A stretch of 56,371 nucleotides of DNA, from positions 1 to 56,371 of IMG/VR virus record IMGVR_UViG_3300021376_000070; one strand, 5' to 3'. Made by a program: the position numbers and the translations under genes. This document shows, piece by piece, positions 1,304 to 55,768 of the stretch. The stretch's first letter is position 1. The number at the start of each line of letters is the position of its first letter. Origin of the DNA: a virus. Its lineage: Duplodnaviria > Caudoviricetes. The notes below the pieces were generated by a model that was not told the DNA's origin, made no database searches, and saw only the letters and a program-made list of their open reading frames with translations.

Positions 1304-2761
1304 ATGAACTACCAACAACGTCTTGCCCTGCTCTCGCTGGTCCAACTCAACACCGTGCTGGTCCAGCACAGCCAAGTCCCGCTCGATGACAAAAAAGCCG
1401 CTCAAGCCGCCGTCAAGGCGCTGATCGATGGCGGCATCGCCAACTGGGACAACGTGCTCAATGTCCAACCCGCGCCCAACATCGTCACCGCCAAGAGCGC
1501 CATCGACAATGACCTGCGCGACAAGGTCAATGCCTCCAACACCAGCGCGATCAACGCACTACGCTCTGCGGAGAGCGCCCTGCGGGAGGTCGGCACCCTC
1601 TCTGCCTCTGTGCGGTCCATGAACAACTCCATGCAGACCGAGTTTCGCACCCTCTCCGAGTCTCTGGTCTCCCGGGTGGACTCCATCAGCAAGCCTGACC
1701 CCGCCCGGATCAGCAACGAGATCACCCAGCAGGTCTCTGCCCTGTTCGATTCTTTCCGCGAAAAAGCAACTGAGCAGCAACTCAAGACCATCGCCGCCGC
1801 CCTGCCCTCCTTCACCGTTGCCCCCGCCAAGGATGTCTTCGGTGACACCTCCTGCGTCTACTCTGGCGAGGACTTCGGCAACATGGAGGTCGCCCTCTGG
1901 AACGATCCCCATGCCCCCGCCGTGGTCGATGACTATGTCTTCAACCCCGAGCACCTGCATCAGGCGCTCATCGCAATCGATGACCCCCTCCCAGACAACA
2001 CTTGGCTCGCTGGTGAGCGCGGCACAGGCAAGTCCGAGTTCGTGACTCAACTCGCAGCGCGGCTCAAGCGCCGCCTGTATCGCATCAACTTCGACGAAGC
2101 CCTTGAACGTGCCGATTTCATCGGTGGCAACAGCATCGAGTCTGGCTCGGTGGTCTGGAAGCCCGGGATCATCACTCAGGCAATCAAGCACCCCGGTGCG
2201 CTGGTCCTGCTCGATGAGATCGGCTTTGCCCGTGCTCAGTCACTCTCTGCCCTCCACGCCCTGTGCGAACGCTCCCCGCACCGTGCCATCACCATCAGCG
2301 AGACCGGAGAACGCATCCCTGTTGCTTCCCATGTCGCCTTTTTCTGCGCTGACAACAGCAACGGACACGGCGATGCCTCTGGCAACTTCGCAGGGGTGCG
2401 TGAACAAAACAGCGCGTTCATCGACCGTTTCTCCTTCACGCTGCTGTTCGACTACCTGCCCGAGAACGATGAGATCGGGCTGCTGGTCAACCGCACAGGC
2501 ATCACGCTCGACGCCGCTCGGATGATCGTGCAGTTCGCCAATGTGGCGCGTGAGAAGGCACGGGCAGGGCTGCTGACTCAGCCCCCCTCGCTGCGCCAGC
2601 TTCTGGCATGGGCACGGGCGGTCAAGAAGGGTATGCCTGTACAGGCTGCTTTTCGTAATGCCATCATCAACAAGTTCCCTGCGGACTGCTCGGTGGAACT
2701 GCAAGGGGTCTACACCTCTCATATCAACGAACGCGACTTCAAACTCGCACTGACCAAGTAA
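1304..2761 (+). CDS. MoxR/CbbQ/CobS-like AAA+ ATPase with N-terminal coiled coil
   Basis: Walker A GERGTGKS, Walker B VLLDEI, AFIDRF arginine finger, SLRQL lid motif. Confidence 0.85.
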   Translation: MNYQQRLALLSLVQLNTVLVQHSQVPLDDKKAAQAAVKALIDGGIANWDNVLNVQPAPNIVTAKSAIDNDLRDKVNASNTSAINALRSAESALREVGTLSASVRSMNNSMQTEFRTLSESLVSRVDSISKPDPARISNEITQQVSALFDSFREKATEQQLKTIAAALPSFTVAPAKDVFGDTSCVYSGEDFGNMEVALWNDPHAPAVVDDYVFNPEHLHQALIAIDDPLPDNTWLAGERGTGKSEFVTQLAARLKRRLYRINFDEALERADFIGGNSIESGSVVWKPGIITQAIKHPGALVLLDEIGFARAQSLSALHALCERSPHRAITISETGERIPVASHVAFFCADNSNGHGDASGNFAGVREQNSAFIDRFSFTLLFDYLPENDEIGLLVNRTGITLDAARMIVQFANVAREKARAGLLTQPPSLRQLLAWARAVKKGMPVQAAFRNAIINKFPADCSVELQGVYTSHINERDFKLALTK

Positions 2762-2769
2762 GGATCACC

Positions 2770-3762
2770 ATGATTGCACTGGAAGCAAAGCGCGGAGTCG
2801 AGGCGACTCTGGAGCGCGTCTACAAAGCCACCAGCAACAGCTTTGAAAAGCTGGTTGTCTCTTGGTCAGGCTCCACCGCCGGGATCAAGAACGAGGGGGA
2901 CACAACCTACATCATGTTCCCCGGCATCGATGAGACCAAGCCCGTCTCGCAATCGATGTTCAACGAGTTCATCGGCTACGCGCTGCATGAACTCGGACAC
3001 AAATGGTTCACCGAGGATGAGCCTTGGGACATAGCCCGAGAACAGCACGGCGACTATGTCGGCAAGCTGATCAACGGGCTGGAAGACCCGCGCATCGAGC
3101 AGAAGGTCATCGACTCAGGCTACGCACCCAATGCTAGGTCTCTGTTTGAGTTCCTGACCAATCAAATCCTCCGCAAAGATGGCTATGTCAAGCCTGATGA
3201 CTTCAAAAACATCCCGTTCATGCTCGCCATCGAGGGTCGCCGTTTAAACGGATATGAGGTCTGCGTCCCGTCCATCATCGATGCATCACCGTACAAGGTC
3301 GAACTGCGCTGGGCACTCAAAGCAGCCAAGCAAGCAAAAAATACGCACCGCATCGCACAGATCGCCATCGAACTGTATGCACGGCTCAAGCAGACCCGTC
3401 AGCAGCAGCAGCAACCCGGGGAGTCGGGAGAGCAACCCGGGGGGTCGGATCAGCAGCCGGGTCAGCAACCGGGTCAGCCCGGGGATCAGCCGGGAGAACA
3501 GTCGGGAGAGCAGCCCGGGGATGCCTCTCAGACCGATCAGAACGGCGCAGGAGACGCGCAAACGCCCGGGGAAGGGGTAGACAAGGGTTCAGAGGAAAAC
3601 GGCTCTGGCAACGGCTCTGGACACTCCGAACCCACAGGCAGGGATGTCGAGCCTGTTGCACTGATTCAAGACCGCTGCGAGGGCATCCGATCCAAGGCTG
3701 ATGAGGTACGCGCAAGACCTCATCCCGGCAAGCCCATCTGGGCACGTATCGACTTCATTTGA
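2770..3762 (+). CDS. CobT N-terminal-like HExxH metallopeptidase-fold protein with Q/P/G-rich tail
   Basis: HELGH...NGLEDPRIE; lies between the AAA+ and vWA genes. Confidence 0.7.
   Translation: MIALEAKRGVEATLERVYKATSNSFEKLVVSWSGSTAGIKNEGDTTYIMFPGIDETKPVSQSMFNEFIGYALHELGHKWFTEDEPWDIAREQHGDYVGKLINGLEDPRIEQKVIDSGYAPNARSLFEFLTNQILRKDGYVKPDDFKNIPFMLAIEGRRLNGYEVCVPSIIDASPYKVELRWALKAAKQAKNTHRIAQIAIELYARLKQTRQQQQQPGESGEQPGGSDQQPGQQPGQPGDQPGEQSGEQPGDASQTDQNGAGDAQTPGEGVDKGSEENGSGNGSGHSEPTGRDVEPVALIQDRCEGIRSKADEVRARPHPGKPIWARIDFI
3400..3530 (+). repeat. degenerate 12-nt coding repeats (Q run, then xQPG units)
   Basis: Repeated cagccggg/caacccggg units. Confidence 0.7.
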
Positions 3763-52838: not shown

Positions 52839-55232
52839 TCAGTAATATGCCGTTTTACGGGGCATAAAAGAACTCTCAACTTCGTCCGACTCTAGTTTGA
52901 TGAAGCCGCCTTGTCTGAAACGAAGCAATGCTTGGGTTGTTGAGTCCACCAAGTCATCGTGGTCGCCGTTTGGAAACGAGGCAAGCTCCTCCACCAGTTC
53001 ATCAGCCCAACGAGTTTCGGGTCTCCAAACCATGCCAGACGCAAAAAGATCAGACACGGCGTTTACACGAGCTATCTTATCCGACCCTTTGCTCGGTGTG
53101 TACTCTGAAATTGGGATGCCCATCTTCCTCATCTCATAGATGAGGGGCGCTCCAGCCGCCTTTTTTTCCACAATCAGGGTGTCTGGGTTCCATTCTTTCC
53201 ATAACTCAAAGGCGGTTTTCTTCAGTTCTGGGAACTCCATGCGCTCTTTGAAGGCGTCCAGAACAATGATGTTGGCAATCTCAGAGCCGTCTACATCCCT
53301 GTAGAAGACGCCCCATGTAGTGCAAGCTGAATAGTCTGCCCTGTTGTTTTTTTCAAAGGCTGTATCCCAGCTTTGGATGATGTAATCCACCTCGGGAGGG
53401 CGATCTTTTTCCCAAATTTTCCACATATCCCGCTTGATGATGGCTCCCTCTTCTGAGGTGGGGTTTTGTTGGTACTGCGCTTCCCACTTGCCCACAGGCA
53501 GTTCTGCCTTGATAGCCTCAAGCTCTTCCTGCTTCCAAAACTCGCCCCACAAGGGTTTACCGGAAGGCAGCAAAGCTGGCAATTCAATGATTTCCCAGTC
53601 TTCCAAGTCTTTTTTGACGGTTGTATTGAGAATTTGACCCGTTAAATCTCGCTTCGACCACCGAGTGTTGTGGCTGATGATGCCATTGGCGATGAAGTTT
53701 TCCGTGCGGTCCACTTCAACGTCAAACACCTCTTCTTTGCCATCAGGAGTGATGCTGATAATTGGATCGACTGTGAAGTCTGAGGTACGCTGAAGCTCGC
53801 TCAAGAACATCTGGCGTTTTCCCGTATCCGACTGCAAGGTTGCAATCGTTGCAAAGGAGTCCACGCACCGCTCCTGTGGAGTGGTCATGATCAATGCAGA
53901 GCTTGCCCCCCCAATGGGCGCGGGTGTTTTGCCCAGAAGGCTGCTCACCGCAGATGTCGCAGCGGTTACCCCGCTCTTCAACCATTTGATTAAATTGTTC
54001 CAGCGTGATGCCGTAGCGATGCTTGATTCTTTTGGCTCTGTTTTGCTCTGGAGTTGATTTTGGAGGCGTGTACTGCTGTCTGTAGCAGGATATACACAGT
54101 CCTTTGCAATGCACAGGCTGTCCGCATCCACAGAGTTTGTTACGCCATTTACCATGATGCCCAAAGGGCTGGCGAAGGGCTTCTGGGTTTTTGCGTCGGT
54201 ATGACTCTCTTGCCGCGCAGGCTCCGCACATTCCAGGCTTTGTTTTTGCTCTGGATGGTCGAGTGCAGCCTTCAACGATACAAGATCGTCCCCCACCCTC
54301 AACTGATTGAGCCGCGTCCATTCCAGAACTCCTTCATTCATCACAAGAAACGGGTGTCTCTCGTTTGCACGGAGTATTCTGCCAGATTTTGTTTGTATCC
54401 GATATATAGCATCAAAACCACTTGACTGCCAGTTGTTTACCTTGGCGGTTGTCAATCTACCCTCTTCAAAGGTGGCTACGATGTCTCCGGGGCGTATTTC
54501 TGCCAGAGGTTTTTGGGTTCCATTGCCCATCAAAACTGAAGTATCCCCGGTCATGCACATAACTATAACAATAGACCCCCCGGGCTGGAGACGCTGCCGG
54601 GGACCGGATGAGTACCACTCATAGACTCTGTCATAGACCGCAGGACTGCCCTGCATGGCTTCTTGTTCACTGTGTGGGTCGTCAATGATCAATACATCAG
54701 CGCCTTTGCCGGTCACTGCGCCGCCCACGCCAATGGCAAAGTAATCACCGCCCTTGGAGGTGTTCCATCTACCTGCGGCTTTGGAATCTGCTGACATCTT
54801 GGTGGGGAAGATGTCCTGATACTCGGTCGATCCAACCAAGTTTCTGACCTTACGACCAAATCCCACTGCTAATTCTGCGGTGTGAGCGGTCTGGATGATC
54901 TTTTTTTCCGGATACATCCCCAAAAACCATGCCGGGAACAGGAAAGAGGCGAATTCTGACTTAGTGTGCCGGGGTGGCATATTGATGATCAGGCGCTTCA
55001 ATTCCCCCCGAGCGACTCGCTCAAAGGCTTCTGCCATGATCTGGTGATGTTTGCCGGGGATGAATGCCGACCACATCTGCCGCACAAATGGCATGAAGTT
55101 CTGTCGGCACCGCTCTTTTTTGTCTGCCTGAAGCAGAGTATGGATCTTTTTGATCTCTGGAGAACCATCTGGCAGTGTATCGAGCAAAGCCAGATACTGC
55201 CTGATTTCATCCCGGGTCAGAAGATCACTCAT
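52839..55232 (-). CDS. terL: terminase large subunit containing an intein
   Basis: MPPRHTKS Walker A, IIDDPH Walker B, SWDTA...ADYSA, HDDLVDS nuclease motifs. Confidence 0.93.
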   Translation of the reverse strand: MSDLLTRDEIRQYLALLDTLPDGSPEIKKIHTLLQADKKERCRQNFMPFVRQMWSAFIPGKHHQIMAEAFERVARGELKRLIINMPPRHTKSEFASFLFPAWFLGMYPEKKIIQTAHTAELAVGFGRKVRNLVGSTEYQDIFPTKMSADSKAAGRWNTSKGGDYFAIGVGGAVTGKGADVLIIDDPHSEQEAMQGSPAVYDRVYEWYSSGPRQRLQPGGSIVIVMCMTGDTSVLMGNGTQKPLAEIRPGDIVATFEEGRLTTAKVNNWQSSGFDAIYRIQTKSGRILRANERHPFLVMNEGVLEWTRLNQLRVGDDLVSLKAALDHPEQKQSLECAEPARQESHTDAKTQKPFASPLGIMVNGVTNSVDADSLCIAKDCVYPATDSSTRLQNQLQSKTEPKESSIATASRWNNLIKWLKSGVTAATSAVSSLLGKTPAPIGGASSALIMTTPQERCVDSFATIATLQSDTGKRQMFLSELQRTSDFTVDPIISITPDGKEEVFDVEVDRTENFIANGIISHNTRWSKRDLTGQILNTTVKKDLEDWEIIELPALLPSGKPLWGEFWKQEELEAIKAELPVGKWEAQYQQNPTSEEGAIIKRDMWKIWEKDRPPEVDYIIQSWDTAFEKNNRADYSACTTWGVFYRDVDGSEIANIIVLDAFKERMEFPELKKTAFELWKEWNPDTLIVEKKAAGAPLIYEMRKMGIPISEYTPSKGSDKIARVNAVSDLFASGMVWRPETRWADELVEELASFPNGDHDDLVDSTTQALLRFRQGGFIKLESDEVESSFMPRKTAYY
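53667..54557 (-). mobile_element. intein (297 aa) in the terminase ATPase domain
   Basis: C1 in CMTGDT..., block B NERHPF, block F VFDVEV, ends IISHN followed by T; excision restores IVIVM-TRW. Confidence 0.9.
53743..54321 (-). CDS. Endonuclease VII-family (His-Me) endonuclease in an alternative frame inside the intein
   Basis: RYGITLEQF...CDICG...IDHDH.TG.VRGLLC..CN..VG; SD AAGGAG 7 nt before ATG 54321. Confidence 0.85.
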   Translation of the reverse strand: MDAAQSVEGGGRSCIVEGCTRPSRAKTKPGMCGACAARESYRRKNPEALRQPFGHHGKWRNKLCGCGQPVHCKGLCISCYRQQYTPPKSTPEQNRAKRIKHRYGITLEQFNQMVEERGNRCDICGEQPSGQNTRAHWGGKLCIDHDHSTGAVRGLLCNDCNLAVGYGKTPDVLERASAYLRLHSRSNYQHHS

Positions 55233-55459
55233 AGAGAGAGCATCTTCTCCACAGAGCGGTCACGAAGTTTGATGGTCCGGACCCTATGGGGGACTGTGGT
55301 CAACAGTCCCTGATCTTGCAGGTCATGAATAATTCGGTGAATATTTGACTTGGAGTGCAGCCCAAGCCCAGTGGCGACATCCTGCAAAGAAGGGGGGAAC
55401 CCCTTCATCCTGATGTAGGCTTGGATGAACTCCAAAACCGCTTTTTGGCGTTCTGTCAC
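55229..55459 (-). CDS. LexA N-terminal-like winged-HTH DNA-binding protein
   Basis: TERQKAVLEFI...GFPPSLQDVA..LGL.S...HR...L...G; no peptidase domain; GTG start after AAGGA. Confidence 0.8.
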   Translation of the reverse strand: MTERQKAVLEFIQAYIRMKGFPPSLQDVATGLGLHSKSNIHRIIHDLQDQGLLTTVPHRVRTIKLRDRSVEKMLSL

Positions 55460-55501
55460 TGTCGTTCCTTTCAAATGAGGAGCGCAGTTTAAACGCGAAC
55501 A

Positions 55502-55768
55502 TCAGTTCGTGCAAGTGCCTTGTGCGGGTTCCCAATCCCAGCCAAAAACCCAAAGCATCATCTTGCGAATGTGCCAGCGGGGTTTCTGGTAAACGGCAAA
55601 CTTGGTGTACCAATCCTTAGTTCCACCAGGCATGACCCAATACCCCACCGCCTGGGGTTGATGGGAAAGGAAAGAAATAGACTCAGCGGGGGCGGTGAAG
55701 GTCATCTCTTTGGTTTGGGCTGGGTTATCGGGATTTCCTTGGTCTGGAATGAATGGTTGTTGTAACAA
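55502..55768 (-). CDS. hypothetical protein
   Basis: 88-aa ORF, SD AGGAG. Confidence 0.55.
   Translation of the reverse strand: MLQQPFIPDQGNPDNPAQTKEMTFTAPAESISFLSHQPQAVGYWVMPGGTKDWYTKFAVYQKPRWHIRKMMLWVFGWDWEPAQGTCTN

What the first reader, a model, noticed from the sequence alone, without database searches (positions are those of the whole stretch)
53667..54557. Terminase intein carries its endonuclease as a separate out-of-frame gene
Seen: the intein (C1 at 54557, HN then T at 53667) is open in the terminase frame, but the segment between splicing blocks B and F has no recognisable nuclease motif. The same DNA read in another frame (54321-53743) gives a 192-aa protein with Cys clusters and a full Endonuclease VII signature (YGIT...CDIC...DHDH...RGLLC..CN), with its own SD (AAGGAG, 7 nt before ATG). 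About 580 nt are therefore open in two frames. Known: intein homing endonucleases are normally in-frame domains, mostly LAGLIDADG or HNH. Inference: a free-standing nuclease gene invaded a mini-intein, splicing removes its off-frame translation product from the terminase, and the nuclease is translated independently and may drive homing or cut competing intein-less phages.
Basis: partly seen in the sequence, partly recalled or inferred. Interest (0 to 1): 0.92.

Follow-up and report, generated by a model that had tools for sequence, protein, structure and literature searches.

The report
Terminase intein with nested out-of-frame nuclease
A lake phage's DNA-packaging gene carries a self-splicing protein insert (an intein), and the DNA-cutting enzyme that spreads the insert is written as a separate gene one base out of step in the same DNA; this is real and conserved, but the layout was already described in 2015 and 2025.

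Summary
The large terminase gene, TerL (52839-55232, minus strand), holds a 297-aa intein (53667-54557). A 192-aa Endonuclease VII/HNH ORF (53743-54321) lies wholly inside it in the -1 frame.

It is not an assembly error. Contigs from four other lake metagenome runs match with no indels. The TerL frame is open across the nuclease in 126 of 127 related loci; the exception is cut by its contig end.

The nuclease frame is under purifying selection. The intein frame is only kept free of stops there and is predicted disordered. A Shine-Dalgarno motif and an ATG or GTG built on the intein's conserved Trp codon are conserved, which supports independent translation.

Intein and extein trees conflict. 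Intein-free alleles, one with identical 30-nt flanks, occur in three of the four runs laid, which supports homing.

The kind is already known. Brucellaphage TerL was described with an out-of-frame HNH in 2015 (PMC4422536). This same EndoVII layout was reported in actinophages in 2025 (bioRxiv 10.1101/2025.01.02.630785). This scan also found it before on other DNA (74 notes). The window is a new, non-actinophage member.

The parts
52839..55232 (-). Terminase large subunit (TerL) precursor ORF, 797 aa, including the intein
   Evidence: ORF list. PHROG phrog_38 terminase large subunit 3.7e-102; Pfam Terminase_6C 4.6e-10.
54558..55232 (-). N-extein (225 aa), ending ...SIVIVM
   Evidence: Sequence. 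Intein-less alleles align colinearly across ...VM|TRW....
53667..54557 (-). Intein, 297 aa: C1 ... H296 N297, followed by +1 Thr
   Evidence: Pfam Intein_splicing 2.1e-18. Removing exactly these 891 nt restores the intein-less allele. C1, H68, H296 and N297 are invariant in 28 sequences.
54267..54557 (-). Hint N-terminal splicing lobe (intein residues 1-97)
   Evidence: AlphaFold2 pLDDT 87-95 over residues 1-90, falling to 73 for 91-100; beta-rich. 50-88% identical to 80 of the 81 relatives compared (L057 0.49).
53832..54266 (-). Intein-frame 'linker' (residues 98-242): the off-frame reading of the nuclease gene, kept free of stops
   Evidence: pLDDT below 50 and almost no secondary structure. 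The core is only 24-57% identical to 80 of 81 relatives (0.97 in the near-identical L002). 0 stops in 37 of 37 distinct alleles.
53667..53831 (-). Hint C-terminal lobe (residues 243-297), ending ...NFIANGIISHN
   Evidence: pLDDT 90-95 from residue 261. Blocks F and G conserved.
53743..54321 (-). Nested Endonuclease VII-type (HNH, beta-beta-alpha-Me) nuclease gene, 192 aa plus stop, in frame -1 relative to TerL
   Evidence: Pfam PF02945 3.2e-19. PDB profile match to T4 endonuclease VII, 4e-05. Model pLDDT 80.5. Codon position 3 most variable.
54329..54334 (-). Shine-Dalgarno-like AAGGAG, 7 nt upstream of the nuclease ATG
   Evidence: Sequence. An SD-like 4-mer lies at -16..-5 in 62 of 64 distinct contexts. 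The Gly codon there is GGA 50 / GGG 10 and never GGT or GGC, against 42% GGA+GGG in C-exteins.
54319..54321 (-). Nuclease start codon ATG, made of the last base of a Glu codon plus the TG of the intein's conserved Trp80 codon (TGG, 54318-54320)
   Evidence: The third base before the Trp codon is A in 64 of 64 contexts with an early ATG. GTG sits at the same place in L033, L054, L055, L057 and L069 (L070 and L071 not printed) and in 4 of 4 actinophages.
53839..53961 (-). Nuclease metal and catalytic core: CxxC (C121, C124), DHDH (144-147), CNDCN (157-161)
   Evidence: C121, C124, D144, H145, H147, C157, N158, C160 and N161 are invariant in 28 sequences. They align to T4 endonuclease VII's ...DHDH...GLLCNLCN.
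52839..53666 (-). C-extein (275 aa plus stop), beginning TRWSKRDL
   Evidence: Sequence. Pfam Terminase_6C at residues 621-770 of the precursor.

Best explanation
This is a mobile (homing) intein in the ATPase core of a lake phage's terminase large subunit, at the conserved ...VM|TRW... site.

The Hint splicing domain and the terminase share one reading frame. The homing endonuclease is a separate nested gene in the -1 frame. It is an Endonuclease VII-type HNH nuclease with N-terminal Cys clusters.

Shown here:
- Both frames are open and conserved.
- The nuclease frame evolves like a protein-coding gene.
- The intein frame over the same DNA is only kept free of stop codons and is predicted to be a disordered loop.
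- A ribosome-binding motif and an ATG or GTG built on the intein's Trp codon are conserved.
- The intein's family tree conflicts with the terminase's, and intein-free alleles coexist with it.

Inferred:
- The terminase precursor is translated through the loop and the intein splices itself out.
- Ribosomes also start internally and make the free nuclease, probably a homodimer.
- During co-infection the nuclease cuts intein-free terminase alleles near the insertion site. Repair then copies in the intein and the nuclease gene.
For: **Real sequence**
- Contigs from 4 lake-water runs not flagged as the source cover 53500-54700 with 0 other letters and 0 gaps.

**Conserved layout**
- The TerL (+1) frame is open across the whole nuclease frame in 126 of 127 related loci; L048 is cut by its contig end.
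- All 71 intein-bearing TerL loci have the nuclease, and 9 of 9 intein-less loci have none.
- The layout is also present in 17 of 18 bacterial genome or MAG loci with 41% identity or more, and in 4 of 4 actinophages checked.

**Selection**
- Mean pairwise differences at nuclease codon positions 1/2/3 are 0.296/0.241/0.519.
- The pattern reverses only at the ends that overlap the Hint lobes.
- Catalytic and zinc residues are invariant.
- The TerL frame has 0 stops in 37 of 37 alleles, where 1.0-5.6 are expected; the +2 frame has 7-20.

**Translation signals**.

**Folds**
- Hint lobes have pLDDT 87-95 (residues 1-90, and from 261); linker residues 98-242 are below 50.
- The nuclease model (pLDDT 80.5) matches Hpy99I and T4 endonuclease VII.
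- Homodimer score is 0.72 against a best control of 0.00. That mark was reached by 20 of 30 proteins solved as pairs and 1 of 23 solved as single chains. The runs agree in at least 95% of contacts, and partner pLDDT is at least 74. T4 endonuclease VII and Hpy99I are solved dimers, so this pass may reflect likeness to them.

**Mobility**
- The empty site is exact.
- The window's exteins nest among six intein-less alleles (SH-aLRT 97-100), while its intein groups with L002 and L003 (99).
- AU tests reject congruence, p 0.00185 and 2.2e-05.
- A 97%-complete relative with an intein-less TerL has no nuclease homologue (positive control).
Against: - No expression, splicing or cleavage data exist. 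No listed run holding the stretch is on record as RNA.
- For the window alone the open second frame is not statistically unusual (P about 0.24-0.25).
- The AU-test groups were named after the trees were seen, and the trees were built by the 'quick' method.
- Alleles are related, so counts of loci are not independent events.
- The Gly and Trp codons that make the SD motif and start codon also encode conserved intein residues. Only their synonymous positions are informative.
- The intein-free form in the lake runs rests on 66-nt unitigs and one 21-letter loose end.
- No sigma-70-like promoter was found inside the gene, so the timing and level of nuclease expression are unknown.
Confidence: 0.85

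Rival explanations
1. The nuclease is made by programmed -1 ribosomal frameshifting from the TerL/intein frame. That would give an N-extein-Hint-N-nuclease fusion rather than a free protein.
For: The nuclease frame is exactly -1 to TerL in every locus. In-frame Hint-N-nuclease fusions exist as single cases: P0001 and the decayed copy L164. The 4 actinophage copies checked have no ATG at the start site, only a GTG.
Against: A stop codon lies 0-30 codons upstream of the start in the nuclease frame in 74 of 75 distinct contexts (75 codons in the other one), and directly before it in 7. Only 11 of 75 contexts hold any canonical slippery heptamer, and these sit at non-homologous places. The window has none. 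The SD motif and the ATG or GTG are conserved through synonymous choices. No conserved RNA structure is present (single-sequence z-score -0.87).
Confidence: 0.04
2. The nested gene serves the phage rather than the intein. It could be a T4 gp49-like resolvase that debranches DNA before packaging, or a terminase-associated HNH cutter co-expressed with TerL.
For: The family match is to T4 endonuclease VII, a junction resolvase. A homodimer is predicted, as for resolvases. The brucellaphage paper speculated on a terminase-HNH functional link (PMC4422536, passages read).
Against: The nuclease is present in all 71 intein-bearing loci and in 0 of 9 intein-less TerL loci. A 97%-complete relative with 90%-identical exteins has no homologue anywhere. 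The nuclease moves with the intein, against the extein tree. Intein-free alleles with identical 30-nt flanks occur in the same lake runs.
Confidence: 0.08
3. It is an artefact or a fossil. Either two compensating indels (for example at the G5 run at the frame junction) displaced an in-frame nuclease domain, or the nuclease frame is a decaying remnant.
For: A G5 run lies just after the nuclease start, about where the intein and nuclease frames would have to be joined. The window's own open second frame is not improbable.
Against: There are no indels in contigs from four other runs. The same offset is seen in 126 of 127 loci from many assemblies and in cultured phages. The nuclease frame shows purifying selection and invariant catalytic residues. 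A search of longer proteins found no intact in-frame form: 2 hits, one a truncated fusion.
Confidence: 0.02

Closest known systems
[quoted passage not shown]
   Same: It is the same intein family, at the same ...M|TRW insertion site with the same -1 offset. The start position on the Hint Trp codon is also the same: GTG in Affeca, Phlyer, AlanGrant and phi1_186018. Hint lobes are 56-69% identical and the nuclease 37-56% identical to the window, while exteins are only 23-31% identical. The linker is unstructured in their models and in mine.
   Different: The window is an uncultured lake phage whose exteins resemble Pelagibacter- and cyanophage-type TerL. Its nuclease is about 40 aa longer than 3 of the 4 actinophage copies checked (AlanGrant's is 194 aa), the extra residues being an N-terminal Cys cluster that overlaps the Hint lobe. 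It has a clear SD motif plus ATG. In the text I read, the preprint has no hits for 'start codon', 'ribosom' or 'metagenom'.
[quoted passage not shown]
   Same: An HNH nuclease gene overlaps the middle of the large terminase gene in another frame. The authors attributed it to an intein.
   Different: No brucellaphage appears among the 40 cultured-phage records that match this intein, so it is not detectably the same intein family by sequence. I did not analyse the brucellaphage locus myself.
ShiLan out-of-frame HNH insertion in mycobacteriophage DNA methylase (Genes 2025, PMC11855218; abstract and section 4.3 read)
   Same: A hidden nuclease sits in a shifted frame while the host-gene frame stays open. 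It is thought to be homing.
   Different: ShiLan has no splicing domain and, according to the authors, no detectable ribosome-binding site. Here a Hint intein removes the insert, and an SD motif is conserved.
[quoted passage not shown] 2009, PMC2677866; search listing and abstract start only)
   Same: The intein's nuclease is not an in-frame domain. Distribution is sporadic. Intein-free and intein-bearing alleles coexist in one population, as.
   Different: The host genes differ. In the fractured genes the intein is split, whereas here it is contiguous. I did not establish the dnaX intein's nuclease family or strand from the text I read.
Canonical inteins with an in-frame LAGLIDADG or HNH domain
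   Same: Both have a Hint splicing domain plus a nuclease, and both show homing behaviour.
   Different: In canonical inteins the nuclease is part of the intein polypeptide. Some relatives of this TerL carry such a canonical LAGLIDADG intein upstream of the nested-nuclease intein in the same gene.

Membership tests
Intein (Hint splicing domain, class 1) | N-terminal Cys/Ser nucleophile and block B His | tested here: met
   C1 and H68 (..NERHPF..) are invariant in 28 sequences. Pfam Intein_splicing 2.1e-18, above its cut-off.
Intein (Hint splicing domain, class 1) | C-terminal His-Asn followed by a Cys/Ser/Thr at +1 | tested here: met
   ...IISHN|TRW. H296 and N297 are invariant. The +1 Thr is seen at every junction listed.
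Intein (Hint splicing domain, class 1) | In-frame insertion that is precisely absent from homologous alleles | tested here: met
   Eight intein-less alleles align across ...ATG|ACC CGC TGG.... A joint skipping the intein is seen in lake runs X4 and X6.
Intein (Hint splicing domain, class 1) | Hint fold | tested here: met
   The AlphaFold2 model has beta-rich lobes with pLDDT 87-95. I did not run a fold search on this model.
Intein (Hint splicing domain, class 1) | Protein splicing activity | not testable with these tools
   Inferred only, from the essential role of TerL and the conservation of the splicing residues.
Endonuclease VII / HNH (beta-beta-alpha-Me) nucleases, Pfam PF02945 | Profile match above the curated cut-off | tested here: met
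   69.1 bits against a cut-off of 23.6. PHROG endonuclease VII 1.7e-29. PDB profile search finds T4 endonuclease VII (1e7d) at 4e-05.
Endonuclease VII / HNH (beta-beta-alpha-Me) nucleases, Pfam PF02945 | Four-Cys zinc site and the D-H...N catalytic residues | tested here: met
   C121, C124, C157, C160, D144, H145, H147 and N161 are invariant and align to T4 endonuclease VII. Which T4 residues are catalytic is recalled, not taken from a call.
Endonuclease VII / HNH (beta-beta-alpha-Me) nucleases, Pfam PF02945 | Fold similar to solved members | tested here: met
   Foldseek finds Hpy99I (3fc3) at E 4.4e-04 and T4 endonuclease VII (1en7) at rmsd 3.3 over 93 columns, with low TM-scores of 0.27-0.35.
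Endonuclease VII / HNH (beta-beta-alpha-Me) nucleases, Pfam PF02945 | Homodimer | tested here: inconclusive
   Model score 0.72 against a best control of 0.00. That mark was reached by 20 of 30 proteins solved as pairs and 1 of 23 solved as single chains. Solved dimers of the family exist, so the pass may reflect likeness to them.
Homing endonuclease of a self-splicing element | Strict linkage to the element and sporadic distribution, with element and host trees in conflict | tested here: met
   Nuclease present in 71 of 71 intein-bearing and 0 of 9 intein-less loci. AU p 0.00185 and 2.2e-05.
Homing endonuclease of a self-splicing element | Cleaves the element-free allele at or near the insertion site | not testable with these tools
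   No assay was possible. The site ...GTN ATG|ACN CGN TGG... is conserved.
Non-canonical intein with an out-of-frame same-strand nuclease (Gosselin et al. 2025) | Nuclease ORF between the splicing blocks, on the same strand in another frame, with the intein frame open | tested here: met
   The offset is identical to that in Affeca, Phlyer, AlanGrant and phi1_186018.

The most novel reading that the evidence does not exclude
The out-of-frame layout may be an old, stable design rather than a brief intermediate after a gene invasion.

- One origin is suggested because the start codon sits on the same Hint Trp codon in freshwater phages and in actinophages.
- The module has since moved between terminases only 23-31% identical. 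It occurs in records labelled from many bacterial phyla.
- No in-frame or mini-intein derivative was seen among the 71 intein-bearing loci.

A possible reason is that an Endonuclease VII-type nuclease must pair as a homodimer. It therefore cannot work while tethered inside a precursor, so it has to be made free.

The conserved SD motif would also answer, for this clade, the question left open in print of how hidden nucleases are translated.
Probability: 0.3. Interest if true: 0.5.

Novelty: new member of a known kind. Interest (0 to 1): 0.3.

Why it matters
The nested gene is invisible to standard gene callers, so these inteins are annotated as nuclease-less or decaying. That misleads surveys of intein life cycles.

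This window shows that the EndoVII-type nested module, reported so far only from actinophages, is common in lake phages and in prophage-like records from many bacterial groups.

It also offers a tidy system for three questions:
- How two overlapping frames are kept, one by amino-acid selection and the other only by stop avoidance.
- How a hidden nuclease is translated.
- How intein-bearing and intein-free alleles coexist in one natural population.

It changes no principle, because the kind is already in print.

Tried and rejected
- **SD-hiding hairpin.** In the single-sequence fold the SD pairs with an upstream ACUCC, but the z-score is -0.87. The 28-sequence consensus has 5 pairs and -1 kcal/mol. 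Rejected.
- **Internal promoter.** No sigma-70-like site in 53600-55600. This says little, as phage promoters may differ.
- **Frameshift site.** No conserved slippery heptamer.
- **In-frame fused forms.** The search of longer proteins gave 2 hits. One (P0001, 476 aa, a single contig) joins N-extein and Hint-N in frame to the nuclease and ends at its stop, so it is a truncated TerL and not an intact in-frame intein. Its DNA could not be seen.
- **RNA evidence.** No RNA holder is listed among the 24 runs. This is no evidence either way.
- **Co-conversion tract.** Nucleotide identity to intein-less alleles dips slightly next to the junction (0.70-0.78 against 0.79-0.83 overall). I did not test this further.
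- **Within-ORF shuffle.** As a null for stop avoidance it is weak, because codon usage is already shaped (mean P 0.28). The extein-usage null and the free-standing controls are better.
- **Kelley et al. 2016 (PMC5050341).** A term search found no mention of Pipefish, Phlyer or endonuclease VII.
- **Literature basis.** The claim that the EndoVII layout is not in print outside actinophages rests on the searches only. Supplements of all papers were closed and not opened.
Full report
**What is there.**
The window is a 56,371-base uncultured virus record, estimated 91% complete. On the minus strand, 52839-55232 is a 797-aa terminase large subunit (PHROG phrog_38, 3.7e-102; Pfam Terminase_6C). It is interrupted by a 297-aa intein at 53667-54557, which starts CMTGDT, ends IISHN and is followed by Thr (Pfam Intein_splicing, 2.1e-18).

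Between the splicing lobes the intein frame matches no nuclease family. One base out of step, in the -1 frame, 54321-53743 encodes a 192-aa protein. It matches Pfam Endonuclease_7 (3.2e-19) and PHROG endonuclease VII (1.7e-29). AAGGAG lies 7 nt before its ATG, and a TGA lies four codons upstream in its frame.

**Is it real?**
- Contigs from four lake-water metagenome runs, none flagged as the possible source, cover 53500-54700 with no differing letters and no gaps.
- Searches with the nuclease and with TerL brought in 146 viral-contig loci.
- In 126 of the 127 loci that hold the nuclease, the TerL frame is open across the whole nuclease frame. The exception, L048, is cut by its contig end.
- All 71 intein-bearing TerL loci have the nuclease at the same offset. 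For L137, which contains Ns, this is shown.
- All 9 intein-less loci lack the nuclease.

Two compensating sequencing errors are therefore excluded.

**Which frame is selected?**
- Over 37 distinct nuclease ORFs, mean pairwise differences at nuclease codon positions 1, 2 and 3 are 0.296, 0.241 and 0.519.
- Within residues 21-181, position 3 is by far the most variable. That position is position 2 of the intein frame.
- The pattern reverses only at residues 1-20 and 182-192, where the ORF overlaps the Hint lobes.
- The zinc and catalytic residues (C121, C124, D144, H145, H147, C157, N158, C160, N161) are invariant in 28 sequences.
- The intein-frame reading of the core is only 24-57% identical to the window in 80 of the 81 relatives compared (0.97 in the near-identical L002). 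The Hint lobes are 50-100% identical in 80 of the 81 (L057's N lobe is 0.49).
- That intein-frame reading is predicted disordered (pLDDT below 50 for residues 98-242), between confident Hint lobes.
- It has no stop codon in 37 of 37 alleles, where 1.0-5.6 are expected from extein codon usage (mean P of zero 0.088).
- The third frame has 7-20 stops. Six free-standing relatives have 3-13 stops in the corresponding frame.
- For the window alone, P of zero is about 0.24-0.25. The signal therefore comes from the comparison across relatives, not from this one sequence.

**How is the nuclease made?**
- The start codon is built from the last base of the codon before the intein's conserved Trp, plus the TG of TGG.
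- In 64 of 64 distinct contexts with an early ATG, that base is A. This holds whether the codon encodes Glu, Lys, Ser, Ala, Arg or Thr.
- Where there is no early ATG, a GTG sits at the same place in the five such loci printed (L033, L054, L055, L057, L069).
- Four codons upstream is a conserved Gly. It is always GGA (50) or GGG (10) and never GGT or GGC, although C-exteins use GGA+GGG for only 354 of 838 Gly codons.
- An SD-like 4-mer lies at -16..-5 in 62 of 64 contexts.
- The 4 actinophages examined have a GTG on the same Trp codon.
- A conserved frameshift site is absent. Only 11 of 75 contexts have any canonical slippery heptamer, at scattered places.
- A stop codon directly precedes the start in 7 contexts.
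- No conserved RNA structure hides the SD.

Independent internal initiation is therefore the best-supported route. It remains unproven.

**What is the nuclease?**
- A profile of 28 sequences finds T4 endonuclease VII and the restriction enzyme Hpy99I among solved structures (4e-05 and 2e-04).
- The model (pLDDT 80.5) finds the same two by fold.
- A two-copy model scored 0.72 against a best control of 0.00. That mark was reached by 20 of 30 proteins solved as pairs and by 1 of 23 solved as single chains. The runs agree in at least 95% of contacts, and partner pLDDT is at least 74.
- Both structural relatives are solved as dimers, so this pass may show likeness only.

**Is it mobile?**
- Eight TerL alleles at 79-83% nucleotide identity (89-90% at the protein level for these loci) lack exactly the 891 nt.
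- On the extein tree, the window and L002 nest among six intein-less alleles (SH-aLRT 97-100). The next relatives, L028-L035, carry an intein only 60% identical in its N lobe.
- On the intein tree, the window groups with L002 and L003, whose exteins are more distant.
- AU tests reject both forced groupings (p 0.00185 and 2.2e-05). The caveat is that I named the groups after seeing the quick trees.
- A 60-kb, 97%-complete relative with an intein-less TerL has no nuclease homologue (positive control).
- In lake runs X4 and X6, a 66-nt contig joins 53660 to 54558 with six other letters between. This is an intein-free allele with identical 30-nt flanks and synonymous Thr-Arg codons. Its depth is 3.6 against 8.2 in X4, and 20.4 against 54 in X6, compared with the intein contig.
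- X8 shows the same junction as a loose end.

Intein-bearing and intein-free alleles thus appear to coexist. The evidence is short unitigs.

**How wide is it?**
- Among 50,697 cultured-phage records, the intein matches only 39 Mycobacterium, Gordonia and Mycolicibacterium TerL genes, plus one short match to a tape-measure gene that is probably spurious.
- In those checked (Affeca, Phlyer, AlanGrant, phi1_186018), the nuclease has the same -1 offset. Hint lobes are 56-69% identical to the window's, while exteins are 23-31% identical.
- In bacterial genome and MAG records, 17 of 18 loci with a nuclease at least 41% identical show the same nesting and the ...SHN|T(R/W)W junction. The record titles include Bradyrhizobium, Mycolicibacterium, Oribacterium, Dysosmobacter, Caulobacteraceae, Chloroflexota and others.
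- The exception, L164, is a decayed copy.
- MAG labels may reflect binned phage contigs, so they do not establish hosts.

**What is known?**
[quoted passage not shown] They propose invasion by a free-standing nuclease and report an unstructured in-frame linker.
- Related cases are the ShiLan insertion (PMC11855218) and the cyanobacterial dnaX intein (abstract only).
- This scan has 74 earlier notes on such layouts in at least 67 genomes.

The window is therefore a new member of a known kind.

- the wide non-actinophage distribution;
- the codon-position evidence;
- the conserved SD motif and Trp-codon start (the preprint text has no hits for 'start codon', 'ribosom' or 'metagenom'; supplements were closed);
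- the apparent coexistence of both alleles in lake runs.

**Verdict.**
The origin by invasion of a mini-intein is untested. Novelty is low and interest is modest.

Noticed in passing
window 53661-53666 and the joint 53660/54558 (runs X4, X6, X8): The intein-free allele found in the same lake runs has identical 30-nt flanks. It differs from the window at 3 of the 6 bases of the first two C-extein codons (Thr-Arg, synonymous). This could be a co-conversion mark or a cleavage-resistant target variant. The same two codons do occur in one intein-bearing allele (L127).
   Followed up: partly
L116:1348-4827, L132:242-3616, L038:1034-4486 (also L024, L034, L039, L133): Some TerL alleles are 1125-1160 aa long. 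They carry a second, canonical intein with an in-frame LAGLIDADG nuclease upstream of the nested-nuclease intein (Pfam LAGLIDADG_3 and Hom_end hits for the three tested).
   Followed up: partly
P0001 (476 aa, from one 2097-nt contig): This protein joins N-extein and Hint-N in frame to the nuclease, skipping the nuclease's first ~36 residues, and ends at the nuclease stop. It may be a deletion variant or an assembly error.
   Followed up: partly
L164:1800-4300 (contig of 911 kb labelled Alphaproteobacteria MAG): This is a decayed copy. It has a stop codon in the Hint N lobe, and a frame change puts Hint-N in frame with the nuclease. The Hint C lobe and C-extein lie in another frame. It is probably a dead prophage terminase.
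   Followed up: partly
L115, TerL open frame 555-2930: The first ~22 intein residues, including Cys1, are replaced by a copy of the start of the C-extein (TRWGKRDLTGQ...). This is either a metagenome assembly chimera between intein-free and intein-bearing alleles or a recombinant that cannot splice.
   Followed up: no
L119, nuclease frame 2319-3065: This nuclease ORF is longer (249 aa open). The profile matches it twice at the N terminus (positions 1-42 and 12-189), suggesting a duplicated first Cys cluster.
   Followed up: no
L149 (Mycobacterium phage AlanGrant), nested nuclease: The catalytic motif reads DHDE...RELLC instead of DHDH...RGLLC. This copy may be inactive.
   Followed up: no
window 55229-55474 (-): An 81-aa ORF ends where terL begins, with overlapping stop and start. 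I did not test this.
   Followed up: no
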